A stretch of 64,000 bases of DNA from Eledone cirrhosa (taxonomy: Eukaryota), in assembly GCA_964016885.1 (NCBI GenBank), contig OZ024753.1:25730001-25794000 (forward strand). Direction: 5' to 3'. Of this stretch, positions 1,580 through 63,789 are shown one piece after another. Positions within the stretch are counted from its first letter, which is position 1. The number at the start of each line of letters is the position of its first letter. The notes under the pieces were generated by a model. That model was not told the origin of the DNA and did not search any database. It worked only from the letters and a program-made list of their open reading frames with translations. The position numbers and the translations under genes are program-made.

Positions 1580-4500
1580 GGGACCAGTGGACAACTGTTC
1601 AAAGGAAGAACAGAAAGCACCGAGACACTGGGAGCAAAAAAACCCAAGTAATGTGCAAGTTTTTCAAGAACGGGACATGCTGGCATGGAGAGACGGGGAT
1701 GGGATGCAGATTCGCCCACCCTAGGTCTCAAACGAACTATGCCCATCATACTCGCGCAACATGCCCCAGCCAAAGCCGAAATAAGCCGCTCCAGAAGTAT
1801 GCTGATGTCGCGCGTGCCACACCAACAAGGAGAAGGCACGCACATGCCGACGAGATACAGATGGCAGCAGCAGATCAGAAAAATTTTTTAGTGATGGCAG
1901 AGAAGATTGTGGGACAGCTGACCTGGCTGCATCGTCTCCAGAGCCAGGGTCATCCACACCAGCACTCGAGACCACCGCAGTTAAGGGACCCAGAGTGGCC
2001 GCCGCTGATACCAGACCAGGTGTCATACCGACAGCCATTACTGGCACCCCAAAAGTCACACCAGTGCTGCTGCTGAATGTCAGGGGCCTGGTGAAACTCA
2101 GTAACATGAGTAAAATTTCCTACCTGGGAGACTTAGCCATAAGCAATCAAGCACTATGCATGGCACTAACCGAAACGCACCTGACAAGCAGTATAGCAGA
2201 TGCAGAAATACATATACCGAAATATACTGTATTTCGTTCGGACAGGAAGGAGAGAACTCATGGTGGGGTTGCTCTGTATATCCGTGAAGATGTCACACCA
2301 ATTGTACTGTTGACACATTCAAACTCAGTCTGTGACACACTGATAATACATATGAAGCAACTACAGACAGTAATATGTGTCACATATCGGCCGCCCGATG
2401 CCCCCAGTCATGAGGGTAAATTTGAGGATAGCCTAAGTAGGATAGAAGAGGTCTTTGACAAACTGGACCAGGGTCTCAACATCCTACTGCTGGGAGACTT
2501 CAACCTACCAAAGGTCAAATGGCCTGAGGGCCACCTCCTCGCTGGAATGACGTCAATAGAACAGAGACAGATGGAATCCCTGCTGGCCCTCACACACAGG
2601 CTGTTCATGGAGCAAGCAATACTCCTCCCAACAAGAGGCGAAAATGTCCTGGACCTCTGTTTTACAAACAACGAAGTGCTCATCCACAATGTAAAGGTGA
2701 CACCAACAATTCTCTCGGATCATAACTTAGTAGAGCTAATGATATGTGGTCCAAGAGAACCAACAGAGACAAAACCACCAAGAAGCTCCGGGACGCTATC
2801 CAGCCTTAACTTCTACAAGGCTAACTGGAAAAAGATTAAGAGTGAAATCCGGAAGCAAACATGGAGTGAAAACACCGCCACACAAGACACTAACACACAA
2901 TTTCAACACTTCATGACAACGATACACACCATATACAAAAAGTGTGTCCCGTAGAAAGAGGCAAACAGACACAAAAATCTTATTCCCAGAGATAGGAAAA
3001 TCCTTATGAGACGTAGAACTAAACTCTCAAACCAGTTGAATAGTCAACAAAACAAAAACAAGAAGGAATCCTATTTGAAACGTGCACTACTTGACACCGA
3101 GATTGCACTCAAACTTTAACATGAGAATGAGAGGGCAAAGAAAGAGAACAGGGCCATAGAAAACATTAAAACAAACCCTAAGGCCTTCTTTAAATTTGCA
3201 AAAGAAACTGCCTCAGTACACTGCAAGATTGGGCCACTCTTCCACACGGACGGTTCATTAACCGAAAACCCCCAAGAGATATGTGAAATACTGAACGAAC
3301 AGTACAAAAGTGTCTTCACATGTCCACTGAGGCACATGCAAATAACGAAGCCAGAGGAGTTATTTGATACCACAACACTACATCAAGAAATGGCAACCAT
3401 CAACCACATAGACATAACGGAGGAGGATGTGGTGTACGCCATTGATGAAATTAGAACAGACTCGGCTGCTGGACCTGATGGATTCCCAGCAGTTCTCTTA
3501 AAAATATGTAAGCGGGCCTTAGCAACTCCACTGAAGATGCTCTTCAGAAGCTCCTTGGCTAGCGGTGTACTACCCAGGGAGCTGAAAGAAGGCACAATAT
3601 GCCCTATCCATAAAGGAGGTAGTAGAGCGGAGGCCAAGAACTATAGGCCAGTCTCCATGACGTCGCATATCAGTAAGGTCATGGAGCGAGTCGTCAGAAA
3701 GAAACTAATCACTTTCCTCGAAGAAAATGACCGCCTGACTAGCACGCAACATGGCTTCCGCCCAGGAAGAAGCTGCCTTACACAGCTGCTACATCACTAC
3801 GACTGGGTACTGAGACAACTACTAGACAGCTCACATGTGGACGTGATATATCTTGACTTTGCGAAGGCCTTTGACAAGGTCGACCACGGAATGATATGTC
3901 ACAAACTACACGGACTCGGCATAACTGGAAAAGTAGGTGAGTGGCTGCATGGCTTCCTAAGGGACAGAAGCCAGGCAGTCGCAGCAAATGGGGCCCTCTC
4001 GAGGGAAACACCGATAACAAGTGGGGTGCCCCAGGGGACAGTCCTGGGACCACTACTGTTTTTGGTGGCTCTCTCGGACATGCCCTCTGTGGTGCATGCA
4101 ACAACATCCCTCACTAGCTATGCTGATGACACTAAGGTAGCACAGGCAATAAAAAACCCGGCTGACGCTGCCCTTTTACAGCAGGATCTGGATGCCATAT
4201 ACAGATGGGCGGAAGAAAACAACATGCAGTTTAATGCTGGCAAATTCCAAGCCCTACAATACAAACCTGCAAACACAAATATAGTGTAACACAGCTACAC
4301 AGGACCAGGAGGGACCGATATCCCCGTGTCAAAATCGATACGAGACCTGGGCATAGACATGAGCGATGATGCATCTTTTTCTTCACACATCATGAAAGTG
4401 GCGACAACGTGCAGACGACTCGCTGGCTGGATCTTGAGGACTTTCCGGACAAGAGATCGAGACACCATGTTGACACTGTGGAGGACTTTTGTCCTAAGCC

Positions 4501-5146: not shown

Positions 5147-9067
<3,921 letters not shown>

Positions 9068-9114
9068 TATATATATATATATACATATATATATATACAT
9101 ATATATATATATAC

Positions 9115-9163
<49 letters not shown>

Positions 9164-9452
9164 CATATATATCTATATCCAAAATTAAGATAAATTAAAT
9201 GAATTTAATCTAAATCAAAATTATGGGTGTCATGCCGGAAAGGCATGCGCCATATCACCCGGGAAATAAGCTCTAAGATTCTAACAAATAGGTCCGAGCA
9301 TTTTATAATAACTAGAAATTGATTAACATATATATAAACATGAATAATCACAGGAGATAATTTTTACAAGTGTGTAACCACACATAGCTAGGTAGGTAAC
9401 TAAATAAAGTTGACTAGAACTTTAAAAACAGATACCTTACAATATGATTAAC

Positions 9453-9546
9453 CTTCCCTGTATATATTCCATTAAAGAAATATATTTCACCAATTAATCA
9501 GATGGTAAACCACGGAAGTGGAGATTGTGGATTTTCAACAAGGAAG
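9453..9546 (-). ncRNA. Type I hammerhead ribozyme, U3-A8 core
   Basis: Minus strand reads CTTCCTTG-TTGAAAA-TCCA...TGGT-GAAA-TATATTTC tttaat GGAATATA-TA-CAGGGAAG: 8-bp stem I, 9-bp stem III, AUA triplet. Confidence 0.75.
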
Positions 9547-9867
9547 AAAATATTCAGCTATCCGTGCTTACACTTCAAGTTCAAATTTGCAACTGGCTAC
9601 TACCACGTGTTGCATCTATTATAAATAAATACACACGCCACAGCAGCTTCGTCCCAGTGGCGCGAATAGGGTTATCGACAAATATAAATAGCAGTCGAGT
9701 CCTTTCAACAGAATTAGCTCTACAATTAAGGAGCCGTATTTATATATCTATATCCAAAATTAAGATAAATTAAATGAATTTAATCTAAATCAAAATAATG
9801 GGTGTCATGCCGGAAAGGCATGCGCCATATCACCCGGGAAATAAGCTCTAAGATTCTAGGATATTTT

Positions 9868-9941
9868 CTTCCTTGCTGAAAATCCAAAATCTCTGATTAA
9901 TTGGTGAAATATATTTCTTTAATGGAATATATACAGGGAAG
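9868..9941 (+). ncRNA. Type I hammerhead ribozyme (inverted copy, C3.A8 mismatch)
   Basis: CTTCCTTG-CTGAAAA-TCCAA...TTGGT-GAAA-TATATTTC/GGAATATA-TA-CAGGGAAG. Confidence 0.7.
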
Positions 9942-10105
9942 GTTAATCATATTATAAGGTATCTATTTTTGAAGTTCTAGTCAACTTTATTTAGTTACCT
10001 ACCTAGCTATGTGTGGTTACACACTTGTAAAAATTATCTCCTGTGATTATTCATGTTTATATATATGTTAATCAATTTCTAGTTATTATATATACATATA
10101 TATAT

Positions 10106-10140
<35 letters not shown>

Positions 10141-10149
10141 CATATATAA

Positions 10150-10206
<57 letters not shown>

Positions 10207-10315
10207 TATATACATATACATATATATACATATATAAATATATATATACACATATATATATATATACATATATACATATATATATATACATATATATATA
10301 CATATATATATATAC

Positions 10316-10360
<45 letters not shown>

Positions 10361-10385
10361 TATATACATATATATATATATGTAC

Positions 10386-10434
<49 letters not shown>

Positions 10435-10595
10435 CATATATATATATGTACGTATATATATATACATATACACATATATAAATATATATACATATACACA
10501 CACATATATATATATACATATATATATATACATATACAGATATATATATATACATATACATATATATATACATATAGATATATATATATACAAGT

Positions 10596-11548
10596 TACAA
10601 GTTAATATAAATTAATATATGATAAACGCTAATATAATCATATAAGTGTTTGTATTGCAAATGACCAAGTTAGCCAGATTGAAAAATACTAATTAGATTA
10701 ATACAGTTTGCCTGTCTCGATTTAAAATAATAAATCCAGGTATCACGGCTATTGCCAATATAGGTTTGTTTTTATTGATTTATTATTTTAAATCGAGACA
10801 GGCAAACTGTATTAATCTAATTAGTATTTTTCAATCTGGCTAACTTGGTCATTTGCAATACAAACACTTATATGATTGTATTAGCGTTTATCATATATTA
10901 ATTTATATTAACTTGTATTTCACGGCTCAGAAATACATCTTTCTTTGAGATAATTAATTGTAAAAGACTGTTTGAGTTTATAACTCTATATATAGTATTA
11001 ACGGCTCCTTTTGTTGAGCTAAATTTTAGTCCCATATAAACGGCTTTTATTTCTAGCAGAACGAGTATGGGGATAGCTAGGAGCTGAAAAACCATGTGCG
11101 TTAACACTTGACTATCAGTCCTCCTAAGTATTTCGAGGTGAAACATACCAATTTTTCTGGATACCTGCTGATGACCACAGGAAATGGAATTTTTCACTTC
11201 TTCAGTTATCGCTGAGAAAATTATTTGGGTTTTGAAATTTAAATATGTCTACGGAACAGGTTTGAGTTTTGAAATTTAAATTTGTCCAGGTATCACGGCT
11301 ATTGCCAATATGGGTTTGTTTTTATTGATTTATTATTTTAAATCGAGACAGGCAAACTGTATTAATCTAATTAGTATTTTTCAATCTGGCTAACTTGGTC
11401 ATTTGCAATACAAACACTTATATGATTATATTAGTGTTTATCATATATTAATTTATATTAACTTGTATTTCACGGCTCAGAAATACTTCTTTCTTTGAGC
11501 TAATTAATTGTAAAAGACTGTTTGAGTTTATAACTCTATATATAGTAT
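10596..11548 (+). mobile_element. Non-coding HHR element B (550-bp monomer, ~1.5 units, 5' inverted arm)
   Basis: Direct repeat 10737-10998 = 11287-11548. 10596-10736 is an inverted copy of ~10778-10917. (TA)n flanks. Confidence 0.8.
11160..11294 (+). ncRNA. Type I hammerhead-like motif with irregular stem II
   Basis: GATACCTG-CTGATGA-...-GAAA-TTTAAATTT-GTC-CAGGTATC: 8-bp stem I and GUC triplet. Stem II is poorly paired at its base and the GAAA segment is locally duplicated. Confidence 0.6.
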
Positions 11549-11556
11549 ATATATAC

Positions 11557-11590
<34 letters not shown>

Positions 11591-11633
11591 ATACATATAC
11601 ATATATATACATATACATATATATACATATACT

Positions 11634-11664
<31 letters not shown>

Positions 11665-11879
11665 ATATATACATATATATACATATACATATATATATAC
11701 ATATACATATATATACATATACATATATATACATATACATATATATATATACGTATATATATATATGATTCCAGTTCCTCAGTGAACTAACAACCCAACC
11801 AGGAACTGGGCATGTCAGAGTATTGACAAAGTTATACCCCTCAACAACATATGTACTTGTCTATACCACAGTAATTCGA

Positions 11880-21656: not shown

Positions 21657-24600
21657 GTTTTGCGAGGTTTTTGATATGAAAACGTGTGTCGAAACAAATA
21701 TTGTTATACTTGGGGAGGGTCATATTTGTGTAATATTGCCAGAATTAATAACAGAACACACTCACTGTTTGGTTGGTTTTCGCTTTTCGCTTCTGTGTCT
21801 TTTATATCGGTAATCTAATTTATTCGGTCCTCAATGTTGCCATTGACTGACAAACGGTCAAAAATAATATAGATACTATATAGACACAAACACATATATA
21901 TAGTTTATCAAAGTTCTTTCGTTGCATATCTGCAACATCGTCAGTGGTGCTATTGTTTCCTCCCGTTACATTGTATTTTCTACGCCATCTTTATTTAGTC
22001 TGTTTATATATTTATTTATTTGTTTATTTTATTTTGTCTTCTTTGCGCATGCGTTTGCGTATGTGTATAGTGTTTTGTTTGATGTGTGTTCGTGATTGGG
22101 TGACTGTGTATTGGTTAATGTATTCTATCTTTACTAGTGTGTGTTTATATGTGTTTGTTGTTATTGTGCTTGTGTATGTATTTATTTATTTATTTATTTA
22201 TACTTCTCTTAGGTCAGTGTTGTTTGTTTGGATGTTGTTGTTATTCCATTCATTCTTTCTGTTTAGCCTTGGCCTTCTAAGTTCTATTTCACTGGCCTCT
22301 CTGATTTGCCTATCTGCTGGGTCATTTCTATGTTTAGATATTATTCTAATTTCTATGTTGTCTATGTTACTGTCGTGTTGTTGTCTGGCATGTTCGTATA
22401 GTACTGAACCATTTTTTCGTCCTTTTAGTTCCCCCCAGTGTTGGTCTATCCTTTCACCTATGCTACGAGCTGTCTCGCCTATGTATGTTGTTGTCATGTT
22501 TCTGCAAGTACCCTCTGTACATCTTATGCTATAGACTACGTTTCTAGATTTACAGTTTATCCGGGGGTTTACCTTACATATGATACATTTCCTATTAGTA
22601 CAGTGGGTTTTCTTAAAAGGGTAGGTTTTGCTGATCAGGGATTTTATGGTGGTTCCTGGCTTTTCTACCACATTGATCTTTAAGTGGGTCTTTCTCAGGG
22701 TCTTTCTACACTGGTTAGCTAATTTCCCTCCAGGGGTAGCGTCCACAAACATGACACTCTAGTATCTCTGGTTGTCGTACCATGAGGTGGCTTTCTCCAT
22801 GATTTGCTCCTGTACAATGGGCAAATTCCTTTCATGTCCAGTTCTATGAGGGTCTTATACTTCTCCATGGCTCCTTCGTATACTCTGACTCTGTCTCTTT
22901 GGTTGTAGCCAGAGAACTGCATGCGGTTGATGAACTGTTGGATGTGTCTTTCCATTTCTGTTGGGTCGCACATGCTGGACACATTCTTCATCACTCGTAC
23001 CAAATCTGCGATCAGAATATTAAACTTAGCACTACTGGACATTGCTGAGTTTTTGAGTATCAAGTATTTGGAGGCCATGGGTTTAGCATAGTGTGAGTGG
23101 AAAATTTGGGCTCTCTCGTCTATAGTGTTAATCCAGAGTTCTGTGTCTAATACAGGTAGTCTATTGTTAGGGTGTTTGGAAGGGAAGTCGATAGTTACAG
23201 TTATACTCTGGTGTATGGAATTAGCTATCTGCTGGATGCTTTCCATTGTGCTACGTTCTAAATCAAACTTGTTAGTGCTCTCTAGTGGGGATGTTCTTAT
23301 AACTATATTGATATCGTCTACGTAACGAGAGTACATGATGAGGTCTATGGAGCTCTCATTAAGGAGATATTTAAGTCTCCTTTCCCACCATACCATAAAA
23401 AGGTTGGCAACATCATCAGCTATGCTGACGCCAATGGCTGCTCCCTTATTTTGGGTGTAGATCTTCTCGTTGAACTTGAATATGTAGCCCTTTAGGGTAG
23501 TTTTGATACTAGCCCCTATTGCATGTGCGACCATTTTTCTTACCTGATCATCGTTTTGGGGGGGGGGGGTCCATATAGCTTTGGTCCACCCAATACACCT
23601 TCCCATGGAAGTCTTTTTAGCCATTGAGGTTATGGCGGGGCGTCTACCTCTTATGGGTCTACTGGGGCAGAAACCTCTAAGGTCATGGCTGTCTAGGTAG
23701 TCAGTGTCGTAGGTAAGTCTAAGTAGGAGGCCCAGTTCGTCTGTGTCGTCGTCGCAGAACTCCACCTCACTCTCAATGCTCATCTCCACACATTTTTCCA
23801 CAGCAAAATTAATGTTAATGGATGGGTACAGTGATACCACATCCATGCTGCCTATTATGCAGTTGGATAGGTTCCTGTTTTTGTTGCACTCACTGATTCT
23901 GCTGAGGAGGTCCTCTGTACTGTCACATACATCTGGGGACATCTTGATTATGGGGCGTATAACCATTGAGAGGAAGTAGGAGATCCTGTCGTTGCTAGCT
24001 ATATTAGCTCCGCCTACGGGTCTTGTTGGTGGTCCTGTTGTCGGGTCGTCGACTGTCTTGTGGTCTTTGCGGAGCCCATACAAGGGTGGTATGCCATTGT
24101 TAGACGCCTGGAAGTTGTTGGCAGTGCGTCTGCTTGGCTTTAGGATGTCGGTCCACATCATCATGTGAGCGTTGAGGATTTTCTCTCTCCCATCATGTAT
24201 TTGCTGTGCAATTTCACTCGTGTTGGTGATGTGGAGTTGCATAGCCTTGATGTAGTTCGGCATGCTATCTATTGACATTCTACCAGACTTATCCGTGGGT
24301 AGACATACTACCTCACCATCCCTTGTGCGCTGCTTGAGGCTAACCAAGCCTTCTACAGGTTTCCTCCCAAGTTGTTGGGCCTCTGGTCTGCTCTGTCTCT
24401 TAGTATACTGGTCTACTATTTGTCTAATCTTATTTCTAGCTATGGTGAACTGTGCCTCTGTCTCGTCATCTATTTGTTGTGGTATGCAAACTCTTTTATT
24501 AAAGGGTAACCTCGTAGGATAGATATTACCCATCTTATATGTTTTGTCAGCTGGGTTGAAGAATAGTTTCTCTAAGGGGTTGTCATTATATCTATCGTCA

Positions 24601-25068
24601 TAGTTGTGTGTGTTGCTATTATTGTTATTATGGTTGTTGTTGTTGTTGTTCCTATCATTAGCATTATTATTATTGTTATGATTGCTAGATGTATTGTTGC
24701 TGTGATTGTTAGATGTATTGTTGTTATGATTTCTAGGTGTATTGTTGCTGTGATTGTTAGATGTATTGTTGTTATGATTGCTAGATGTATTGTTGCTGTG
24801 ATTGTTGTTTACTTCACCGTTATTGTTGTTGTTACTGTTATTTCTACCATTGTGGTTGTTACTTTTATTATGTTTCTTGTTTTTGTTGTGTCTATCATTA
24901 ATGTTGCTACATGTATTATTTCCATCAATTTCATTGAAGACCGAATAAATTAGATTACCGATATAAAAGACACAGAAGCGAAAAGCGAAAACCAACCAAA
25001 CAGTGAGTGTGTTCTGTTATTAATTCTGGCAATATTACACAAATATGACCCTCCCCAAGTATAACAAT
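21657..25068 (-). mobile_element. Penelope-like element with inverted terminal pLTR
   Basis: RT ORF 22719-24995 (PTDKSG, GSMDVVSLYPSI, GAAIG, RYVDD, LPVLD), frameshifted into GIY-YIG ORF 22198-22752 (VVYSIRC, YIGETARS). ~21698-21837 is inverted at ~24932-25068. Confidence 0.9.
22198..24930 (-). pseudogene. PLE reverse transcriptase + GIY-YIG endonuclease, 5'-truncated and frameshifted
   Basis: RT and GIY-YIG motifs lie in two overlapping frames. The annotated N-terminus is read-through from the inverted pLTR. Confidence 0.85.
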
Positions 25069-32143: not shown

Positions 32144-35100
32144 TCAGATATTCAGGACGTATCGGAGGGTTCTTGCTGTTCCAAGCAAGCATGCCTTTTG
32201 AAGCGTTCCAAAAAGCGTGAAGGGGCCGATTTTCTTTAACCATCCCTGGAAACTTTTGGAGATAGTCCCCAGTGCGCCTATGACAATCGGGATCACTTTG
32301 ACTTCATGGCAGTTCCAAATCCTTTTCACCTCCCACTTTAGGTCCTGGTATCGGTTAATTTTCTCCCTCTCCTTCTCTTGCACTCTCGTGTCGAACGGGC
32401 AGGCCACATCCACAATCAGACACGATCTTTTTTCTTTGTCCACAACCACCAGGTCAGGTCTATTGTGTTCCAGTTTTTTGTCCGTCTGTATCCTAAAATC
32501 CCACAGCACCTTCACCTGATCGTTCTCCATCACCGCCTCTGGCCTATGCTCATACCATTTCTCAGAATGTGGTAAATTGTTTACTTTGCACAGGTGCCAG
32601 TGGATCACCCTGCCCATCACATCGTGTCTCCAGCCCTTGTAGTGGGTCTGGGCTAGGTGTTTACACTTGGACACAATGTGAGCCACAGTCTCCTCTCTCT
32701 CTCCACAGATCCTGCACAGTGGGCTAGCCTCCTCCTTGTAAATATGGTGCTTCAACCACTTCGTTTTGAGGGCCTGCTCCTGCGCAGCCATTAGCATTCC
32801 TTCTGTAGCCTTTTTGAGGTCTCCTCTTCTCAACCAGTTCCATGTCTGTGGATCTCTAAATTCAGTTTTCTCAAAGAAGGTACTATGAAGGGATTTTCCC
32901 TTAAGGCTGCTCTTCCTCCTTGATGTTATTTCCTCCTTGGACATCCCCTGGCCTACTGTCCCCTCCTTCAGTACAGTTCTGAGCATTGGCTCCTTACTAT
33001 AGGTCACGTATTTGTATAGGTTGTTTTTCTCCATCTGAACACAGTCCTCTATGCTGATAAGACCTCTTCCACCCCCAGATCTCCTTAGGTAGAGTCTATC
33101 GACATCACTCCTCTTGTGGAACATGTTGTAGATAGTCAATAGCTTCCTAGTCTTCCTATCCATTTCTTTTTGTTCAGCAACATTCCATCTCAGAATTCCC
33201 GCACTGTACCTAATAATAGACACAGCTCGGGAATTTACTGCGCTTATGGCATTTCTGCTGTTCAGATGTGACTTCAATACGCTCCTTACTCTCCGAATGT
33301 ATTCAGTTCTTAACAATTCCTTCATTTTTTTGTTCTTTATGCCATCAGCCTCCAGAACGCCCAAATACTTGTATCCTTCCTCAGAGTCAATTTCCTTTAT
33401 CATCTCACCTGTTAGTATCTGGATCCCGTTACTTCTGCTCAACCTACCCCTCCTCATCACAATGACTCCACATTTACCAATACCAAACTGCATACATATA
33501 TCACTGCTGAAAATACGGACAGTGTCAACAAGCACATCCAACTCCTTCTCACTTTTCCCGAAGAGCTTAAGATCGTCCATGAAGAGGAGGTGATTGATGG
33601 TAAGCTCTCCCCTTCCCAACTTGTATCCTGCTCTCACTTTTCGCAGCATAATGGTCAAGGGCATCAGGGCAAGGACAAACAACAGAGGGGACAGGCTATC
33701 TCCCTGGAAGATACCTCTCTTGATCTTCACGCTTCCCAAGGATACTCCAGTTGATGTCAACTCTGTCTCCCAGGACCCCATACTCCTGCCTAGCAACTGT
33801 CTGATGTTATCTGCCACCCTGAAGATCTCCAGGCTTTTGGTGATCCAAGAATGAGGCACCATGTCAAATGCCTTTCTGTAGTCTATCCATCCCATGGCAA
33901 GATCAGTGTGTCTCCTCCTGCAATTCCCCATTACCATCTTATCAATAAGTAACTGGTCCTTTGTACCACGTGACTTCTTTCGGCATCCTTTCTGTTCGTC
34001 CGGTAACAAGTTGTTTGTGTGGAGGTGATGGTAGATTTCCTCAGACACAATGCTCGTCAACAGTTTCCACATTACGGACAGACATGTGATAGGTCTATAG
34101 TTGGTAACATCATTACCCTTGATTCGGTCTTTCATTATCAGAACTGTGGTACCTTTTGTCAACCACTCTGGCACCTCACCCGACACCAAGCAGTCATTGA
34201 ACATGGCCGTCAGCTTCGGGTGGAGGGATGTTAAATGTTTAATCCAATACCCCTGCACGCCATCTGGGCCTGGTGATTTCCAGTTGGTTAGTTTTTTGGC
34301 CTGCCCCTTAAGAGTTTCAACTGTGATACTCAAATCAGTTTGTTGTTGTGCCTGCTCACCGATCTCCCTCTGTACTGTCTCAATCCACTCTGCCTGGACA
34401 TTATGTCTAACATCCTGCTCCCATATTCCTCTCCAGAATGTTTTAGTTTGCTCCGCCCCAGGGATCAAGTCGTTGCCTCTTTCTTTCCCCTCAAGCTGTC
34501 CAAACAGCATCTTCTGGTTGTTGTCGAACATGCGGTTCTGTTTATACTGACTGACTCTGTTCTCGTATCGCCTGATTTTTGCACTCTTTGCTACAATGCG
34601 TTGCTTCAGTTCCTCTATGGTAATATTTAGCTTTTTCCTCCTAGTTTTGTATTTTATTTCCAGTCTATTTTTAGTGCCTATGTTTTTTAGTGTCCCATTC
34701 AGTAGTGACTCAAGCTTTCCTATGTCATTTCTCATTTCCCCGATTTGCCCACTCAGTCGTTTCTTCCACCACGGCTCTGCTCTTTCTTGTCTGTTGTTTC
34801 CTCTCGCTTTTATACCAAGTAGTTTCCTCACCGTATTTGCTGTTGCTTTGAGGATATTGTTGCACTGGTGAAGGCTTCTCGCCTCAAGGTATGGGATGAC
34901 TTTGTTTACCTTAGCTGTTGTTTCTTTTAACTTTTTCCTGTCTACAAATCTTAGGTTCATAGGTCTCCCACTATCATTGTTCAATTCATCTACCACTAAA
35001 TTTAGGATGTCAACCGAATCTTGTCCTAGCCCGTCAGCATTCATCTCCTCAGTGGCCGTATCTCTGTTCCAGGTATTATTTATCTCAGTATTCAGATCAT

Positions 35101-35536
35101 TGTCTGCTTCGGGTGGTTCCTCCGTTCTCAGGACCTCTTCACCTTCATTTCCCACTGGCTCGCTTGTCTGGCATACTACACCCGCCATCTCCAAGCTATT
35201 CTCTCTGCTCAGTTCCTCCAGTTCCAGCTCGCTTATCCACCCATTAGTTCTTATTACCCGAGCCTGCCCGGCCAATTTTTGTTCATCTAATTTAAATAAA
35301 CCAATCTCGTTCCAGATGTTATGCATCCGTCTCCTGTAGCCCCTCTCCTTGGGGTTACTTTTCAGGTAACATTGCATAACAGTTCTATTTAATTCTTTCG
35401 TCCAGTTGGTTCTGGCCCCTTTCCTTCTTCTCCTTCCTCCAACATCAGCAGTATTTGGTTGACAGTCAGGTTCCTGCTGCTGAGCCAGGGGGCACCTGTT
35501 GGGTGAGAGTCTGTCACATGACGTTCTAGTCTCCAT
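32144..35536 (-). CDS. Dong/R4-clade retrotransposon ORF (RT + CCHC + restriction-like endonuclease), 1130 aa, intact
   Basis: [66 protein letters not shown] and KINRY. Confidence 0.95.
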   Translation of the reverse strand: METRTSCDRLSPNRCPLAQQQEPDCQPNTADVGGRRRRKGARTNWTKELNRTVMQCYLKSNPKERGYRRRMHNIWNEIGLFKLDEQKLAGQARVIRTNGWISELELEELSRENSLEMAGVVCQTSEPVGNEGEEVLRTEEPPEADNDLNTEINNTWNRDTATEEMNADGLGQDSVDILNLVVDELNNDSGRPMNLRFVDRKKLKETTAKVNKVIPYLEARSLHQCNNILKATANTVRKLLGIKARGNNRQERAEPWWKKRLSGQIGEMRNDIGKLESLLNGTLKNIGTKNRLEIKYKTRRKKLNITIEELKQRIVAKSAKIRRYENRVSQYKQNRMFDNNQKMLFGQLEGKERGNDLIPGAEQTKTFWRGIWEQDVRHNVQAEWIETVQREIGEQAQQQTDLSITVETLKGQAKKLTNWKSPGPDGVQGYWIKHLTSLHPKLTAMFNDCLVSGEVPEWLTKGTTVLIMKDRIKGNDVTNYRPITCLSVMWKLLTSIVSEEIYHHLHTNNLLPDEQKGCRKKSRGTKDQLLIDKMVMGNCRRRHTDLAMGWIDYRKAFDMVPHSWITKSLEIFRVADNIRQLLGRSMGSWETELTSTGVSLGSVKIKRGIFQGDSLSPLLFVLALMPLTIMLRKVRAGYKLGRGELTINHLLFMDDLKLFGKSEKELDVLVDTVRIFSSDICMQFGIGKCGVIVMRRGRLSRSNGIQILTGEMIKEIDSEEGYKYLGVLEADGIKNKKMKELLRTEYIRRVRSVLKSHLNSRNAISAVNSRAVSIIRYSAGILRWNVAEQKEMDRKTRKLLTIYNMFHKRSDVDRLYLRRSGGGRGLISIEDCVQMEKNNLYKYVTYSKEPMLRTVLKEGTVGQGMSKEEITSRRKSSLKGKSLHSTFFEKTEFRDPQTWNWLRRGDLKKATEGMLMAAQEQALKTKWLKHHIYKEEASPLCRICGEREETVAHIVSKCKHLAQTHYKGWRHDVMGRVIHWHLCKVNNLPHSEKWYEHRPEAVMENDQVKVLWDFRIQTDKKLEHNRPDLVVVDKEKRSCLIVDVACPFDTRVQEKEREKINRYQDLKWEVKRIWNCHEVKVIPIVIGALGTISKSFQGWLKKIGPFTLFGTLQKACLLGTARTLRYVLNI

Positions 35537-36649
35537 TTCACCGTTATTCGAACTGTTTATGTTCGATATTTAAACACTCTTATCGAGGATTGGCGAATGT
35601 ATGGTTACATAGCCATCTGTGGATCCGCCATTCCACTTGGCCCTTGTGCGGCATTATCACCACGCTGTATACGAACACACATAAACAAACAAACACACAG
35701 GCAGAAAGGGCCCCAAAAATGAATAAGCATAAGTTTCATTGTAATGTAGTGTTCGAATGTCTGACTTAGTTTTTGTTTTTTAAGTTTTAGTTTTTCTCCC
35801 CTCTTCTCTGTCCGTCCGCCTGCTTCTCTCTTCATTCTTATTTTCTTTACGCTTTTTTTGTTTTTTTTTTTTTGTTTTTGTTTTGGTTTTTCTCTGTTTG
35901 TTTTTCTCATTTTTTGCTGTTGTTGCTGTGCTGCTTTGGTTTTGTTGTTTGTTTTTTCTTTTTTCTTTTGAGTCTATCTATATATTTTGATGCCTTCCTC
36001 TTTTTTAGCAGTAGGGATTCTATAATGTGGTGGCAGCAGCCAGCTGAAAGAAGTGGGTGACTGGCGGCGGTAGCGATACTGAGACAGTGGTGGTGGTGAT
36101 GTCGATACCGAGGCAGTGGTGGCGGTGATGTGACCGTATTACTGTAGTGATGGTGCTGTAGCGGTGGTAGCAGTGAAGGAGTGAAGGGGTGGTGGCGGCG
36201 GTGATGGGATAATGGTGGTAATGATGGCCGTAGTGAGCGGTGGTGGTGAAAATGCCGTTATCTGGCTGTTGTGTTTAGTGTACACAGGTGATGGGGTGGG
36301 TGGTGTATCTAGTTTCTGGTGTTGGTGAGTTTGGCTGTTCTATATAGTGTAGACAGAGGAGAGGAGGGGGGGTTCTTCTTCCATTTATAGCCATTTTCTT
36401 TTTTGGATATACAGTGTACAATACAAAGTTGAATATTTGAATATTTGAGCCTTATAACAATATATTTGGGGTCCGAATTTTTTTTGGGCTCAAGCCGGGT
36501 GCTTTACGTAGCATTTGTACTAAGAGTTGTTATTTCACAAATGATTTAAATATGTTAAAAATTCAAACCTTACGGGAGCGATTTCATGACCTCCGCCACC
36601 TCGTGCGTCTTCTTCCCTAATTATTATTATTATTATTATTGTTGTTGTT

Positions 36650-38630
36650 ATTCCTTGAATCTCAGTCATTGATGTTGGTTAACTGGAAAGTCCGTTGGAT
36701 TGAATATCAAGCCACTACCTGCAGCCTCAGATATTCAGGACGTATCGGAGGGTTCTTGCTGTTCCAAGCAAGCATGCCTTTTGAAGCGTTCCAAAAAGCG
36801 TGAAGGGGCCGATTTTCTTTAACCATCCCTGGAAACCTTTGGAGATAGTCCCCAGTGCGCCTATGACAATCGGGATCACTTTGACTTCATGGCAGTTCCA
36901 AATCCTTTTCACCTCCCACTTTAGGTCCTGGTATCGGTTAATTTTCTCCCTCTCCTTCTCTTGCACTCTCGTGTCGAACGGGCAGGCCACATCCACAATC
37001 AGGCATGATCTTTTTTCTTTGTCCACAACCACCAGGTCAGGTCTATTGTGTTCCAGTTTTTTGTCCGTCTGTATCCTAAAATCCCACAGCACCTTCACCT
37101 GACTGTTCTCCATCACCGCCTCTGGCCTATGCTCATACCATTTCTCAGAATGTGGTAGATTGTTTACTTTGCACAGGTGCCAGTGGATCACCCTGCCCAT
37201 CACATCGTGTCTCCAGCTCTTATAGTGGGTCTGGGCTAGGTGTTTACACTCGGACACAATGTGAACCACAGTCTCCTCTCTCTCTACACAGATCCTGCAC
37301 AGTGGGCTAGCCTCCTCCTTGTAGATATGGTGCTTCAACCACTTCGTTTTGAGGGCCTGCTCCTGCGCAGCCATTAGCATTCCTTCTGTAGCCTTTTTGA
37401 GGTCTCCTCTTCTCAACCAGTTCCATGTCTGTGGATCTCTAAATTCAGTTTTCTCAAAGAAGGTACTATGAAGGGATTTTCCCTTAAGGCTGCTCTTCCT
37501 CCTTGATGTTATTTTCTCCTTGGATATCCCCTGGCCTACTGTCCCCTCCTTCAGTACAGCTCTGAGCATTGGCTCCTTACTATAGGTCACGTATTTGTAT
37601 AGGTTGTTTTTCTCCATCTGAACACAGTCCTCTATGCTGATAAGACCTCTTCCACCCCCAGATCTCCTTAGGTAGAGTCTATCGACATCACTCCTCTTGT
37701 GGAACATGTTGTAGATAGTCAATAGCTTCCTAGTCTTCCTATCCATTTCTTTTTGTTCAGCAACATTCCATCTCAGAATTCCCGCACTGTACCTAATAAT
37801 AGACACAGCTCGGGAATTTACTGCGCTTATGGCATTTCTGCTGTTCAGATGTGACTTCAATACGCTCCTTACTCTCCGAATGTATTCAGTTCTTAACAAT
37901 TCCTTCATTTTTTTGTTCTTTATGCCATCAGCCTCCAGAACGCCCAAATACTTGTATCCTTCCTCAGAGTCAATTTCCTTTATCATCTCACTTGTTGGTA
38001 TCTGGATCCCGTTACTTCTGCTCAACCTACCCCTCTTCATCACAATGACTCCACATTTACCAATACCAAACTGCATACATATATCACTGCTGAAAATACG
38101 GACAGTGTCAACAAGCACATCCAACTCCTTCTCACTTTTCCCGAAGAGCTTAAGATCGTCCATGAAGAGGAGGTGATTGATGGTAAGCTCTCCCCTTCCC
38201 AACTTGTATCCTGCTCTCACTTTTCGCAGCATAATGGTCAAGGGCATCAGGGCAAGGACAAACAACAGAGGGGACAGGCTATCTCCCTGGAAGATACCTC
38301 TCTTGATCTTCACGCTTCCCAAGGATACTCCAGTTGATGTCAACTCTGTCTCCCAGGACCCCATACTCCTGCCCAGCAACTGTCTGATGTTATCTGCCAC
38401 CCTGAAGATCTCCAGGCTTTTGGTGATCCAGGAATGAGGCACCATGTCAAATGCCTTTCTGTAGTCTATCCATCCCATGGCAAGATCAGTGTGTCTCCTC
38501 CTGCAATTCCCCATTACCATCTTATCAATAAGCAACTGGTCCTTTGTACCACGTGACTTCTTTCGGCATCCTTTCTGTTCGTCCGGTAACAAGTTGTTTG
38601 TGTGGAGGTGATGGTAGATTTCCTCAGACA

Positions 38631-38631
<1 letters not shown>
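36650..38631 (-). mobile_element. Dong/R4 5'-truncated copy, near-identical to 32070-34048
   Basis: Same protein from VSEEIYHH to the stop with few substitutions. The 5' junction is in (TTA)n. Confidence 0.95.
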
Positions 38632-38723
<92 letters not shown>

Positions 38724-38740
38724 CACTATATATATATATA

Positions 38741-38916
38741 CGAGGGTATACTGAAACGTCCATAGGCTGACTATGAAGGATTCATGCTAGAGCCGTGAAA
38801 TCTTCTAATTAATAACTGCATTGTTTCTTTGCAGGGATTATGTTGAAAATTAAACCTCATTTGGTCATTCCATGAGAGTATCTTGGCTCAGTTATGAAGT
38901 TTCCCACCTACCCTCG
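38741..38916. mobile_element. Possible mariner-derived MITE
   Basis: TA|CGAGGGTA...TACCCTCG imperfect terminal inverted repeats resembling mariner ends. Confidence 0.45.
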
Positions 38917-48779: not shown

Positions 48780-49080
48780 AAGTGGGTTATATTGGGGGGG
48801 GGGTATATTGGGGGAGGTGGGTTATATTGGGGGAGGTGGGTTATATTGGGGGGGGGTCGGTTATATTGGGGGAGGTGGGTTATATTGGGGGAGGTGGGTT
48901 ATATTGGGGGAGGTGGGTTATATTGGGGGAAGGGGGGTTATATTGGGGGGGGGGGTTATATTGGGGGAGGTGGGTTATATTGGGGGGGAGGTCGGTTATA
49001 TTGGGGGTGGTGGGTTATATTGGGGGAGGTGGGTTATATTGGGGGAGGTGGGTGGGTGAGTTGTATGGGGGGAGTTATAT
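48780..49080. repeat. G-rich minisatellite (~19-bp GGGTTATATTGGGGGAGGT)
   Basis: About 14 tandem variants. Confidence 0.9.
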
Positions 49081-49407: not shown

Positions 49408-49774
49408 GGCACGTGATTGGCTGTCATGTCTACAGTCAAGCCACGTGATTGGTTGTCATATCTACAGTCAAGCCACGTGATTGGCTGTCATGTCTACAGT
49501 TAAGCCACGTGATTGGCTGTCATGTCTACAGTCAAGCCACGTGATTGGCTGTCATGTCTACAGTCAAGCCACGTGATTGGTTGTCATGTCTACAGTCAAG
49601 CCACGTGATTGGCTGTCATGTCTACATTCAAGCAATGTGATTGGCTGTCATGTCTACAGTCAAGCCACGTGATTGGCTGTCATGTCTACAGTCAAGCCAC
49701 GTGATTGGCTGTCATGTCTACAGTCAAGCCACGTGATTGGCTGTCATGTCTACAAGCCACGTGATTGGCTGTCA
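49408..49774. repeat. 32-bp minisatellite GCCACGTGATTGGCTGTCATGTCTACAGTCAA
   Basis: About 11.5 near-identical units. Confidence 0.95.
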
Positions 49775-56408: not shown

Positions 56409-57812
56409 AATATGATAATTATACTTTAGTATTGAGACTTGGAGAGGGGCGACATCTGGCTTAAAATATGATAATTATACTTTAGTATTGAGACATGGAG
56501 AGGGGCGACATCTGGCTTAAAATATGATAATTATACTTTAGTATTGAGACTTGGAGAGGGGCGACATCTGGCTTAAAATATGATAATTATACTTCTGTAT
56601 TGAGACTTGGAGAGGAGCAACATCTGGCTTAAAATATGATAATTATACTTCAGTATTGAGACTGGGAGAGGGGTGACATCTGGCTTAAAATATGATAATT
56701 ATACTTCAGTATTGAGACTGGGAGAGGGGTGACATCTGGCTTAAAATATGGTAATTATACTTCAGTATTGAGACTGGGAGAGGGGTGACATCTGGCTTAA
56801 AATATGATAATTATACTTCAGTATTGAGACTGGGAGAGGGGCGACATCTGGCTTAAAATATGATAATTATACTTCTGTATTGGGACATGGAGAGGGGCGA
56901 CATCTGGCTTAAAATATGATAATTATACTTCAGTATTGAGACTTGGAGAGGGGCGAAATCTGGCTTAAAATATGATAATTATACTTCAGTATTGAGACTT
57001 GGAGAGGGGCGACATCTGGCTTAAAATATGATAATTATACTTCTGTATTGAGACTGGGAGAGGGGTGACATCTGGCTTAAAATATGATAATTATACTTCA
57101 GTATTGAGACTGGGAGAGGGGCGACATCTGGCTTAAAATATGGTAATTATACTTCAGTATTGAGACTGGGAGAGGGGCGACATCTGGCTTAAAATATGGT
57201 AATTATACTTCAGTATTGAGACTTGGAGAGGGGCGACATCTGGCTTAAAATATGGTAATTATACTTCTGTATTGAGACTTGGAGAGGGGCGACATCTGGC
57301 TTAAAATATGATAATTATACTTCTGTATTGGGACATGGAGAGGGGCGACATCTGGCTTAAAATATGATAATTATACTTCTGTATTGGGACATGGAGAGGG
57401 GCGACATCTGGCTTAAAATATGATTATTATACTTCAGTATTGAGACTGGGAGAGGGGTGACATCTGGCTTAAAATATGATAATTATACTTCTGTATTGAG
57501 ACTTGGTTAGGGGCGACATCTGGCTTAAAATATGATAATTATACTTCAGTATTGAGACTGGGAGAGAGGCGACCTCTGGCTTAAAATATGATAATTATAC
57601 TTCAGTATTGAGACTTGGAGAGGGCGTCATCTGGCTTAAAATATGATAATTATACTTCAGTATCGAGACTGAGAGAGGGGCGACATCTGGCTTAAAATAT
57701 GATAATTATACTTCAGTATTGAGACTTGGAGAGGGGCGACATCTGGCTTAAAATATGGTAATTATACTTCTGTATTGGGACATAGAGAGGGGCGACATCT
57801 GGCTTAAAATAT
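56409..57812. repeat. 56-bp satellite, ~25 units
   Basis: Unit AATATGATAATTATACTTCAGTATTGAGACTTGGAGAGGGGCGACATCTGGCTTAA. Confidence 0.97.
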
Positions 57813-57959
57813 GCTATTGAAACGCCGTATGTGAATGTGATGCCCCCTACGACCTACTTAGTTACGGCATCATACTTACAGTTGTTGACTTGTGGTGGGA
57901 ATATATCTTGATCAGGAGAAGAGAAAGGAGCGAAGTAGAGATTCTGTGTATTACTGAAT

Positions 57960-60357: not shown

Positions 60358-63300
60358 TGGCTGTGTTGAGAATAGGTTGTCTAAATGCGCGTGGCCTGGG
60401 CTCACCTTGGATGCAAGAAATGCTTCTAAATGACCTCAGGTCACGATATATAAATGTGATGGTCATTTGCGAGGCCCGGATCAGCAGCGTGCGACAGCTG
60501 GCCCCCCACCTTTGATGACTTTGAGATGCACGCATCTCTCTGTCAGCCCGGAGGTGGGAGTGGAGTTGTCGTTCTGCTGCAAAAACATCTGGGTCTCGCC
60601 ACACAGATAGTTCACTTGGACCCAGGGGGTCGACTGGAGGTGCTGGACCTTGTCAATGGTGAAGGTGGAGCCTTTAGGCTGGTAGCCGCATATGCCCCTT
60701 TTGGGACAGAGCGGACCGTCTTCTTCCATCGTCTGGAGTCTTTTCTAGAGACGTCCCGTTCCCTGCTTTTAGTGGGGGACTGGAATGGTATCCTGGATGC
60801 ACGTTGGGATTATGCAGGGGCATGTCCCAATAGAGAGGGGTGTAACAGCCTCAAGGAGTTACTCGGCCGATTTGACCTGGCCGATAGATTTCGACTAGAT
60901 TTTCCGACTGTGCCAACCTGGTCTTGGTCAAACCGCAGCGGTCAATCTAGATCGTACCTAGATAGGTTCTTAGTTAGAAATAAGAACAGAGACTTTTTAA
61001 GTTGTCCAGAAATGCTCATGGTTGGCTATTCAGACCACAAGTTAGTAACCTGCAAGGTAAACTTTGATAAAACGCATAGACAGGGACCCGGTTACTGGAA
61101 GCTGAACTTGTCCCTACCGGCAAGTAAAGCTTACAGGAACCGGATTAGTACGTTAGTTAAGGAGCGGTTGACTGGAGCGATCGTCAACAGCAGGTGGTGG
61201 ATATCTCTAAAGAGAGAGATTAGATTAGTCTCGATAGAATTTAGTAAGGTTTTAGCTGCGGATAGGAATAGGAAGGAAAGCGAGCTGATAGACAGAGTAG
61301 AAGAGGCAATTAGAAGCTGCGACGTGGCCAGAGTGCTAACGTCGAGAAGGGCTTTGAGCCAGTTTTCCGACGCGAAGCACGAAGGCTGCGTTGTCCAAAG
61401 TAAAATACGTGCTCTAGGAAATGAGGGGACCAAAGCTGTTAGCTGGGCCCGCGTGACAGAAGCCAAGAGTGGAATTAAATCCACCATCCGGTCTTTACAA
61501 GACCAGGATGGACGGGCGATCCTTGAACCTAAGCAGATGTGTGAGGCCTTTCAAAGGCACTTTGCCCGATTGTTGGGAAGGGGCGAGGAGCCGGTTGGAG
61601 AAGTGGACTTCGGTCCATACCTCGACGGCGTGCCGCGTCTTTTGGACGAGGAGGCGAAGTCCTGCGAGGAGCCGATTTCAGCCGCTGAGATAGAGGACCT
61701 AATGAGCCAATGCGGAAAACGCAAGTCCCCGGGTCTCGATGGTCTTCTATACGAACTATATCTAGCTATGCCGGACTTGTTCCCCGATCTCCTCGAGGCG
61801 GTCTACTGCAACTGGCAACAGAACGGGAGAATTCCGTTCTGTGATCAAGGGCGTAGTCACACTAGTGAGGAAGGACGAGAACAAGGGGGACGAAATAAGT
61901 AACTTCAGGCCCATAACTCTTCTAAATACAGAGTTACAAATTTTGGCCAAGGTGTTAGCAATGAGGTTGGCGCTTGTCGTGGGCAACCTGGTAGGAGATG
62001 CGCAGACATGTGCTATCCCGTCCAGGTCCATCCACGACAACCTCCACCTCATGCGATACATCATAGAGAGGGTTGGGAACGAACCCGGCTTTGGTGGGGC
62101 CCTGATCAACTTGGATCAATCTAAGACGTTCGATAGGGTAGACCATGGTTACCTGGATGCGGTGCTAGCGGCGGCAGGCTTCGGACTCGTTTTCAGGGGC
62201 TGGATCACTGCTATGCACAGCAGCCGCATCTGCTCTAGAGTCAAGGTGAACGGCTACCTCTCGGAGCCGTTCGAAATCGCGCGGTCCATCCGACAGGGTG
62301 CCCTCTCTCCTCCCTTCTTATGTATTGACTCTCGAGCCACTACTGCGGATATTGGAGTTGTTGCAGGGTATCCCTTTGGAACCGGGATTGCGGAAAGCGG
62401 TGTCGGCCTACGCCGATGACGTGACAGTAATGGTGTCGACGGCCTCCGAAATCGGGCGATCGGCACATTACTGGAGGAGTACGAAAGGTTTACAGGGGCT
62501 AAGCTGAACCGGAAAAAGTCGATCGGTTTGTAACTCGGCACGTGGAGGGAGAAACCGATGCACTCCGATGGCGTCGTCGGACGCTGGACGGAGGGCCCGG
62601 TGAAGTTGCTCGGGGCTGGTTCGGACCAGACCTCCAGGTGGAGAAGAACTGGCGTGAGGTTACGAACAGGGTGTTTGCACTGAACAAGAAGTGGGCAAGT
62701 TGCAAACTATCCCTGAAAGGACGGGTGGAGGTGGCGAACACCTATATAGCGTCCGTCATCTACTACCGCCTGACCGCCGTGCCTTGCCCAAGGGAAACCC
62801 TCGCCAAGATGGAGCGCGCAATCTTCCAATTCCTTTGGAAGAAGCGGGCTCCTTTGGTGAGGAGATCCATCTGCTGTCAACACCCTTCGAAAAGAAGGCT
62901 GGGAATGCCGTGGTTAATGATGCGTAAACACCCATTAAGGCTACGACACCTCCACGCATTCCTCACCGGTCAACCGGTGTGGGCCCCGTTTGTGAGACGA
63001 ACCTTTCCCAGACTCGTCTCACTCACCGAGCTGCAATCCTGGGTCAAGCAAAGACCGAGAAAACTGGGCGCCTGGCACACTGAGTGTGCCCAGGCGCTCA
63101 CGGCCCTCTGGCAAGCGGACCCGGTTGTCAGTGGAGACTCCACCTCGACATTCTATAGATGGCTGATTAGCAGCAGATGCGACGACGCCCTCGGAGAAGC
63201 TCTAGACATGGAGGAAGACGAACTGGCCAGCCTGTTCGGTAGGACATTCAGCCTGGGACCTATGGACAACTCCCTGAAGTCCCTAGCCTGGCAGTGCTAC

Positions 63301-63789
63301 CGAGGGGCTTTACCAGTTCGAGGAAAGCTCTACAGACACGGGCGCCCGGATAGGCACCCCGCCAAAAAGATCTGTCCCAGATGCGTGTGCGACGAGGAAA
63401 CCGTTGCACACGCATTAGTACACTGCTCGGGCGTTGCCGATCTGTGGGGCTATGTCGAACGACTGCTGTCACGGGTGGGACCGATCCGGTTGACCACCGA
63501 AGCCATTGTAACGATTAAGCCGCCTCCCCTCTTCAAGAATGAAGGAGAGGTGGTGTTTCTGTACGTAATAGCCATGGTGAAAGAGGTTGTATGGTGGACG
63601 TGTCTGAAAGGGCTGAGGTCAGACACCTTTCTCTCTGGCCAACAACTGGTCCTTTTCTTCCGATATCATTTCGGAAGAAGGATCAGGATGGAGAGAAAGG
63701 TGCTCCACCCCAGCCAGTTTTATGAAAGGTGGGTGAAAGTGGCGAGAATTGCCCGTGTGAATGGGCCATCTATCTACATCAGCCTGTAG
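60358..63789 (+). pseudogene. Tx1/L1-like ORF2 (APE + RT + CCHC), several stops and frameshifts
   Basis: GCLNARGL, AYAP, GDWN, SYLDR, SDHK, GPGYWKLN, KSPGLDG, NFRPITLLN, LDQSKTFD, YADD, CPRC...ETVAHALVHC. Confidence 0.92.

What the first reader, a model, noticed from the sequence alone, without database searches (positions are those of the whole stretch)
10730..11294. Element B begins exactly at its predicted ribozyme cleavage site
The internal HHR predicts GTC|CAGGTATC (11286/11287). The upstream partial unit starts with CAGGTATC at 10737, directly after the inverted arm, which accounts for the sequence up to 10736. This base-exact match suggests the reverse-transcribed RNA had a 5' end made by self-cleavage, followed by inversion or a template switch. 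It is indirect evidence of in vivo ribozyme activity.
Basis: partly seen in the sequence, partly recalled or inferred. Interest (0 to 1): 0.75.

Follow-up and report, generated by a model that had tools for sequence, protein, structure and literature searches.

The report
Ribozyme repeat starting near cut site
This is one of hundreds of copies of a small non-coding repeat with a predicted self-cutting RNA motif, and its start beside the predicted cut is likely a coincidence, because copies begin there no more often than elsewhere, although a few one-armed copies that start on that exact base may be real traces of cutting.

Summary
Coordinates are right, but the match is not base-exact: TC at 10735-10736 fits both the inverted arm and the native GTC, so the junction is ambiguous by 2 nt. 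The element is a 550-nt non-coding unit with a type I hammerhead fold (two compensated stem I pairs), inserted in (TA)n as two head-to-head arms with fixed unequal outer ends (75 of 93 junctions), the Penelope 'tail' signature: a non-LTR retrozyme. This copy's own hammerhead core is degenerate. One residual signal: 5 of the 6 are lone arms, 4 starting on the exact base (control 1 of 13 lone, P=0.003, partly post hoc), which may mark a small run-off class from cleaved RNA. No RNA data. The scan found sister families, and a similar negative test, on other DNA of this genome.

The parts
10087..10590 (.). (TA)n-type microsatellite, left flank and likely target
   Evidence: TRF array; sequence
10589..10595 (-). 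7-nt duplicate (TACAAGT) of the outer end of the inverted arm; possibly an aborted first priming
   Evidence: sequence; cause inferred
10596..10736 (-). Inverted arm: unit positions 41-181, outer (3') end at the tail-less start site near position 182, 5'-truncated at position 41
   Evidence: blastn 99.3% to 11327-11467; 3' end at position 182 in 73 of 243 family segments
10735..10736 (.). TC microhomology shared by both arms; the junction cannot be placed within it
   Evidence: direct homology extends 2 nt upstream of 10737
10737..11286 (+). One whole 550-nt monomer, predicted cut site to predicted cut site; 31% GC; no protein
   Evidence: longest stop-free frame in the element 116 aa
10984..10997 (+). 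TATATATA box just before the tailed start site (unit 248-261); candidate promoter or priming match to (TA)n
   Evidence: sequence; function untested
11160..11294 (+). Type I hammerhead motif: stem I 11160-11167 with 11287-11294, CUGAUGA 11168-11174, GAA-A 11216-11219, long stem III with a 37-nt duplication (11227-11249, 11264-11286), GUC 11284-11286; degenerate in this copy at 10.1-11.1 and 15.2
11286..11287 (+). Predicted self-cleavage site (after C17)
   Evidence: family fold, L002 folds as a three-way hammerhead junction; cleavage not tested
11287..11548 (+). Partial second unit, positions 1-262; ends at the tailed start site; positions 183-262 (about 11469-11548) are the 80-nt tail absent from the inverted arm
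11537..11766 (.). (TA)n-type microsatellite, right flank (overlaps the TA-rich end of the arm)

Best explanation
This is a protein-free 550-nt hammerhead repeat that was likely copied into a TA microsatellite by a Penelope-type reverse transcriptase working from both sides of a DNA break, and the start of its long arm beside the predicted cut site is likely a chance microhomology join. Shown: two head-to-head arms, outer ends at two fixed unit positions (about 182 and 262), inner ends scattered over the whole unit, arms crossing the site intact up to four times, a 2-nt overlap at this junction. Inferred: each nicked strand primes cDNA at one of the two internal starts on an RNA whose cut site is closed (a ligated circle, or an uncut or multimeric transcript); both cDNAs stop at arbitrary places and are joined through a few shared bases. 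Here the long cDNA most likely ran at least 2 nt past the site and paired with the short cDNA through TC/GA.
For: Architecture: of 93 head-to-head junctions 75 pair a tailed with a tail-less arm, 0 two tailed, 2 two tail-less, 16 unclassified. 5' ends: 208 ends over 60,746 nt at risk, 0.34% per nt, no 3-20 nt window significant after scan correction (best P 0.36-0.50); 0 ends at positions 548-3 in 154 sampled passages. Genome-wide: 6 independent junctions in about 703 passages, 6.1 expected; control positions 104-106 give 13 in 783; exact base only, 4 of 703 against 5 of 783 (P=1.0). Two-armed junctions at the site: 1 (this copy), 4.9 expected. Overlaps of 2 nt or more in 51 of 93 junctions, whereas a blunt join would show TC by chance about 5% of the time (GA frequency 0.053): roughly tenfold in favour of read-through. 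154 of 219 arms cross the site at least once, 25 twice or more (the sample was partly picked for holding the site). Both arms share rare variants in 21 of 47 pairs against 2.75% of random pairs. In the anole PLE, two internal starts make the tail, both strands are cut and extended, and hammerhead mutants insert normally (PMC11167929, parts 1-2 of 4 read).
Against: Five lone-arm insertions do start at the site (four on the exact base), above their own background (1.2 expected in 3 nt, P=0.009), so cut RNA may serve as template at times and this copy could be such a case. The junction is also compatible with a blunt join at 10736/10737. No autonomous partner with matching terminal sequence was found. 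Circle versus linear multimer is not resolved: tandem copies in one arm differ at a median 5 of 150 sites, and L003 and L116 mix subfamilies in one arm. No RNA data.
Confidence: 0.75

Rival explanations
1. One reading: the template was a linear RNA whose 5' end was made by self-cleavage; the reverse transcriptase ran off at position 1 and the end was joined bluntly to the partner arm, the TC match being chance.
For: The arm is exactly one monomer plus the partial unit, and 10737 is one of three possible junctions. Four other insertions start on the exact base with a non-native base before it (L167, L168, L171=L174, L195) and a fifth with a TC overlap (L189, three segmental copies). In L168 the filler before the junction holds short reverse-complement pieces that stop at position 1.
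Against: All five other cases are lone arms; among two-armed insertions this is the only case, below the 4.9 expected. TC by chance about 5%. No overall excess (6 against 6.1). This copy's own core is degenerate, though the cut would have been made by an upstream unit that is not in the insertion.
Confidence: 0.15
2. The reverse transcriptase pauses at the 3' foot of the folded ribozyme (stem I, positions 1-8), or run-off ends are trimmed before joining, so ends gather near the site without marking a cut at that base.
For: 25 ends in positions 1-50 against 17.1 expected (P=0.043) and 6 in positions 501-550 against 16.2 (P=0.004), both uncorrected; 8 ends in positions 6-15 against 3.1.
Against: None of these windows survives scan correction; it does not explain four ends on one base.
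Confidence: 0.07
3. The structure arose at the DNA level after insertion (fold-back, deletion or assembly error), not during reverse transcription.
For: The element lies between long microsatellites and is palindromic, which troubles assemblies (PMC8557442, passages).
Against: The same two-armed layout with fixed unequal outer ends recurs in 75 of 93 junctions at independent loci; the arm differs from each direct copy at one different site.
Confidence: 0.03

Closest known systems
Metazoan non-LTR retrozymes (Cervera and de la Pena 2020, PMC7229834, passages and Discussion read; Li, Clavereau and Pollet 2026, 10.64898/2026.07.22.740005, parts 1-3 of 5 read)
   Same: Non-coding, low-GC tandem unit of a few hundred bases with one type I hammerhead per unit; dispersed short copies plus a long array (118 units in about 60 kb on C11); Penelope-like elements proposed as mobilisers.
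   Different: Long stem III (about 20-70 nt) instead of a short palindromic one; U4 replaced by A or C in 131 of 181 copies; here the insertions are resolved into two arms with fixed outer ends; self-cleavage and circular RNA not shown here; no matching autonomous pLTR found.
Endonuclease-bearing Penelope-like elements, insertion signature (Craig et al. 2021, PMC8557442, passages; Frangieh et al. 2024, PMC11167929, parts 1-2 of 4; Cervera and de la Pena 2014, PMC4209133, parts 1-2 of 4)
   Same: Partial tandem, inverted 5'-truncated copy at the 5' end, tail at one end only, (TA)n target, hammerhead upstream of two internal start sites.
   Different: No RT or GIY-YIG frame; the tail is 80 nt rather than 30-40 bp. 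Frangieh et al. found no RNA-seq reads ending at the hammerhead site and no need for cleavage, which fits the main result here.
R2 retrotransposon with HDV-like ribozyme (Eickbush et al. 2013, PMC3774820, abstract only)
   Same: [quoted passage not shown]
   Different: In R2 the cut defines the element's 5' end; here about 99% of passages run through the site, so it is not the element's boundary.

Membership tests
Type I hammerhead ribozyme | Three helices around the core, stem I open | tested here: met
   Stem I 8 bp; two pairs change on both sides together in one subfamily (A-U to G-C in 19, C-G to U-A in 19 of 181 copies; one inherited event each, not 19); a stem II pair also changes on both sides in 5 of 51 rows; 93% of cells paired against 11-47% when slid. 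L002 folds as the three-way junction.
Type I hammerhead ribozyme | Conserved core CUGANGA / GAAA / UH and G10.1-C11.1 | tested here: inconclusive
   Of 181 distinct copies (7 of 188 dropped as false anchors): C3 158, U4 49, G5A6 167, G8A9 171, CGAAAC 154, GUC 143, fully canonical 16, canonical but for position 4: 67. The window copy has the canonical CUGAUGA but lacks 10.1-11.1 and 15.2-16.2. No Rfam hit at gathering score in the window or 6 loci, nor at E<=10 on 2 stretches.
Type I hammerhead ribozyme | Self-cleavage after C17 | not testable with these tools
   Needs an in vitro assay; only the indirect junction counts were possible.
Non-LTR retrozyme | Short non-coding low-GC tandem unit with one hammerhead per unit | tested here: met
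   36 distinct monomers of 473-553 nt; 31% GC, longest frame 116 aa; 118-unit array.
Non-LTR retrozyme | At least two consecutive complete hammerheads (the 'active' criterion of Li et al. 2026) | tested here: not met
   This insertion holds one complete motif; other family members (L012, L025, C11 array) hold several.
Non-LTR retrozyme | Expression as linear and circular monomer RNA | not testable with these tools
   No RNA holder listed.
Penelope-mobilised non-autonomous element | Partial tandem with inverted truncated copy, tail at one end, (TA)n target | tested here: met
   219 of 243 segments end at 160-186 or 248-265; 75 of 93 junctions pair a tailed with a tail-less arm.
Penelope-mobilised non-autonomous element | Sequence shared with the terminal repeat of an autonomous PLE in the genome | tested here: inconclusive
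   No blastn match in 32 loci of one abundant PLE family; flank comparison gave no common body. Other PLE families were not searched.
R2-type: ribozyme cut sets the 5' end of insertions | 5' junctions pile up at the cleavage site | tested here: not met
   6 of about 703 passages, 6.1 expected; control 13 of 783.

The most novel reading that the evidence does not exclude
A small class of one-armed insertions (about 2-3% of lone arms that reach the site) begins on the exact cleavage base because the Penelope reverse transcriptase ran off a ribozyme-cut linear RNA, while two-armed insertions come from closed (circular or uncut) RNA: a genomic footprint of in vivo hammerhead cleavage in a Penelope-mobilised RNA, and a sign that template form decides the insertion type.
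Probability: 0.4. Interest if true: 0.62.

Novelty: new member of a known kind. Interest (0 to 1): 0.36.

Why it matters
Whether hammerheads of Penelope-like elements and retrozymes cut in vivo, and whether the cut sets the template end, is open: the 2014 paper says there is no in vivo evidence and proposes circles, the 2024 paper finds cleavage dispensable in vitro. This family gives a count: about 99% of copies run through the site, which argues for a closed template and against reading single junctions as proof of cleavage. The lone-arm excess, if it holds in a full census and in sister families, would be indirect in vivo evidence and is cheap to test.

Tried and rejected
Rfam at gathering score (window; 6 loci) and by E-value (2 stretches): no hammerhead hit. 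Sequencing runs: no RNA holder listed; contigs of three coded runs of one sample laid on the element gave fragmented cover and cut tables, of no use for junction counts. A minimal hammerhead with a 1-bp stem II (C-CACA-G then GAAA at 11175-11184) was considered from this copy alone and dropped: the family alignment puts GAAAC further on. Autonomous partner: the PLE-like frame at window 22719-25016 belongs to an abundant family with a 1210-aa frame that shares no DNA with the unit; its fragments lie beside some insertions, read as a shared (TA)n target. Circle versus linear multimer by within-insertion divergence: undecided. Clusters of 5' ends at positions 13, 81, 298, 481: none survives correction. 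The first single-reference mapping misplaced ends in diverged subfamilies and was redone with 36 monomers. The pair count covers stems I and III for 24 of 51 rows only, since the alignment put the short subfamilies' 3' strand in other columns. Literature: eight full-text searches listed no paper that counts genomic 5' junctions at the hammerhead site of PLEs or retrozymes; subscription journals and supplements (bioRxiv ones closed, others not opened) were not seen and may hold this.

Full report
Observation. The window holds, between two (TA)n tracts, an element at 10596-11548. Numbering the unit from the base after the predicted cut (position 1 = 10737 = 11287), it consists of an inverted arm 10596-10736 (positions 181 down to 41), a whole 550-nt monomer 10737-11286 and a partial unit 11287-11548 (positions 1-262). 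But the direct match between the two copies extends two bases upstream of 10737 (TC), and the inverted arm also accounts for these bases, so the junction has a 2-nt microhomology and three possible positions.

The ribozyme. Rfam gives no hammerhead hit. The family alignment does show a type I hammerhead: stem I GATACCTG/CAGGTATC, a CNGANGA core, stem II closed by G-C, GAAAC, a long AU-rich stem III and GUC. In 181 distinct copies two stem I pairs change on both sides in one subfamily (19 copies each), and 93% of cells pair against 11-47% for slid controls (related sequences inflate such counts). Copy L002 folds into the three-way junction as its minimum-energy structure. The core is often non-canonical: U4 in only 49 of 181, fully canonical in 16; 31 of 176 copies have all three junction-closing pairs above 0.5 probability. 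The window copy keeps CUGAUGA but has C-A at 10.1-11.1 and A-G at 15.2-16.2, with predicted probabilities 0.00 and 0.01 for the stem II and III closing pairs. Perreault et al. (PMC3088659, passages) say that core changes usually cost much activity but are sometimes tolerated. So the site is correctly placed, and activity of this copy is doubtful and untested.

The family. The window's 3-Gb genome holds 744 matches to a degenerate 25-mer at positions 1-25, one array of 118 units over about 60 kb and monomers of 473-553 nt in several subfamilies. In the loci used as baseline (152 fetched, the window's own and outcome-picked ones left out, duplicates merged) 219 of 243 segments have their 3' end at positions 160-186 or 248-265, mostly 182 and 262-264. 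Of 93 head-to-head junctions 75 pair a tailed arm with a tail-less one, none pairs two tailed arms, 2 pair two tail-less arms and 16 could not be classed. This is the layout described for Penelope-like elements (PMC8557442, passages), and the anole enzyme cuts and extends both strands from two internal starts that delimit the tail (PMC11167929, parts 1-2 of 4). The two arms of an insertion share rare variants far more often than random pairs (21 of 47 against 2.75%). An abundant PLE family with a 1210-aa frame is present (its RT, zinc-finger and GIY-YIG motifs are recognised from recall, Pfam gave only a weak RVT_1 match) but shares no DNA with the unit, so the partner is not identified.

Baseline: 208 5' ends over 60,746 nt at risk, 0.34% per nt, with no window significant after scan correction, and none at positions 548-3 in 154 passages. 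Genome-wide I counted every exact or degenerate match to the start of the unit and fetched all those with a non-native base three or one places upstream: 22, 13 and 14 further, 49 in all, out of a union of 786 passages. Forty were point or small changes in an intact site (one of them an array member judged from the continuous alignment only); nine rows were junctions, six independent: the window copy, L167, L168, L171 (=L174), L195 and L189 (three segmental copies). After removing 80 passages in the long array and 3 duplicates, that is 6 of about 703, against 6.1 expected. The same procedure at positions 104-106 gave 13 junctions among 34 hits, out of 783 passages after removing 49 array members (one of the 13 is a complex join); Fisher P=0.25. 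On the exact base, 4 of 703 against 5 of 783. Limits: one control position; copies too diverged for the patterns are missed; junctions with a chance G three bases upstream are partly missed; other arrays or duplications were not removed.

This copy. Among two-armed insertions it is the only junction at the site, 4.9 being expected (P of 1 or fewer 0.045). Overlaps of 2 nt or more are seen in 51 of 93 junctions (taken from blast ends, so approximate), while a blunt join at position 1 would show TC about 5% of the time. The plain reading is that the long cDNA passed the site and was joined through TC.

The result against my reading. The five other junctions are all lone arms, four on the exact base with a non-native base before it, two of them spanning just positions 1-182. 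At the control position 1 of 13 is lone (Fisher P=0.003). Against the lone-arm background 1.2 are expected in three positions (P=0.009) and 0.41 on one base (P=0.0009 for 4); per passage against the control P=0.09. I noticed the pattern in the first three cases (P=0.047) and it recurred in 2 of 2 in the independent set (P=0.11 alone). It is partly post hoc, rests on five events, and lone arms may also arise by later deletion. I give it 0.4. If real, it marks a minor route: reverse transcription from an internal start running off a ribozyme-cut 5' end, as in R2 (PMC3774820, abstract).

Mechanism. Most likely a transcript of a tandem copy is processed by the hammerheads and closed, or stays uncut; a Penelope-type enzyme nicks both strands of a (TA)n tract and primes at positions about 262 and 182; both cDNAs run back through the site, stop at arbitrary places and are joined by microhomology. 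Arms, ends and read-through are shown; enzyme, circle and cleavage are inferred. A circle was proposed by Cervera and de la Pena (PMC4209133, PMC7229834); linear multimers from the long array are not excluded, since two arms mix subfamilies. No RNA holder was listed.

Verdict. A new family of a known kind, non-LTR retrozyme with the Penelope insertion signature. The finding as stated is not evidence of in vivo cleavage. Earlier notes of this scan describe sister two-armed families in this genome and one similar negative test; none matched this sequence. They are unchecked notes and were read after my counts were made.

Noticed in passing
G000:C11 about 4449700-4509700 (L239-L242, L200-L202): A single-orientation array of 118 units of an older subfamily (about 511 nt), a candidate source locus for multimeric transcripts.
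   Followed up: partly
window 9166-10090: A second non-coding element with the same plan: direct repeat 9166-9283 / 9741-9858 and inverted repeat 9304-9553 / 9861-10090 between (TA)n tracts; no CNGANGA core found on either strand.
   Followed up: partly
window 22719-25016 (-); L233:1073-4705: Truncated copy of an abundant, young Penelope-like family (74 scored matches at 92-100% protein identity; intact 1210-aa frame in 4117-nt tandems; asparagine-rich insert).
   Followed up: partly
window 5735-8878 (+), end near 9068: Helitron Rep/PIF1 helicase frame of 1047 aa, followed by a hairpin and CTAG just before the (TA)n tract at 9068.
   Followed up: no
window 1806-4289 (+), 32144-35569 (-), 36727-38781 (-), 60460-63789 (+): LINE-type endonuclease and reverse transcriptase frames.
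   Followed up: no
family-wide, unit positions 415-550: Position 4 of the hammerhead core is A in 84 and C in 47 of 181 copies while the rest of the core and the stems are kept; the younger subfamilies carry a 37-nt duplication that lengthens stem III.
   Followed up: partly
family-wide, unit positions 501-550: 5' ends are scarce in the stem III hairpin (6 seen, 16.2 expected, uncorrected P=0.004).
   Followed up: partly
L168:1469-1503: Filler before a junction at position 1 is built from short reverse-complement pieces of unit positions 1-10, like templated insertions of end joining.
   Followed up: no
L088:1133-1683: An arm of exactly one unit length in permuted register (position 183 to 183, 551 nt).
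   Followed up: no
window 56409-57813, 49410-49774, 48782-49053: Minisatellites of 56, 32 and 19 bp.
   Followed up: no
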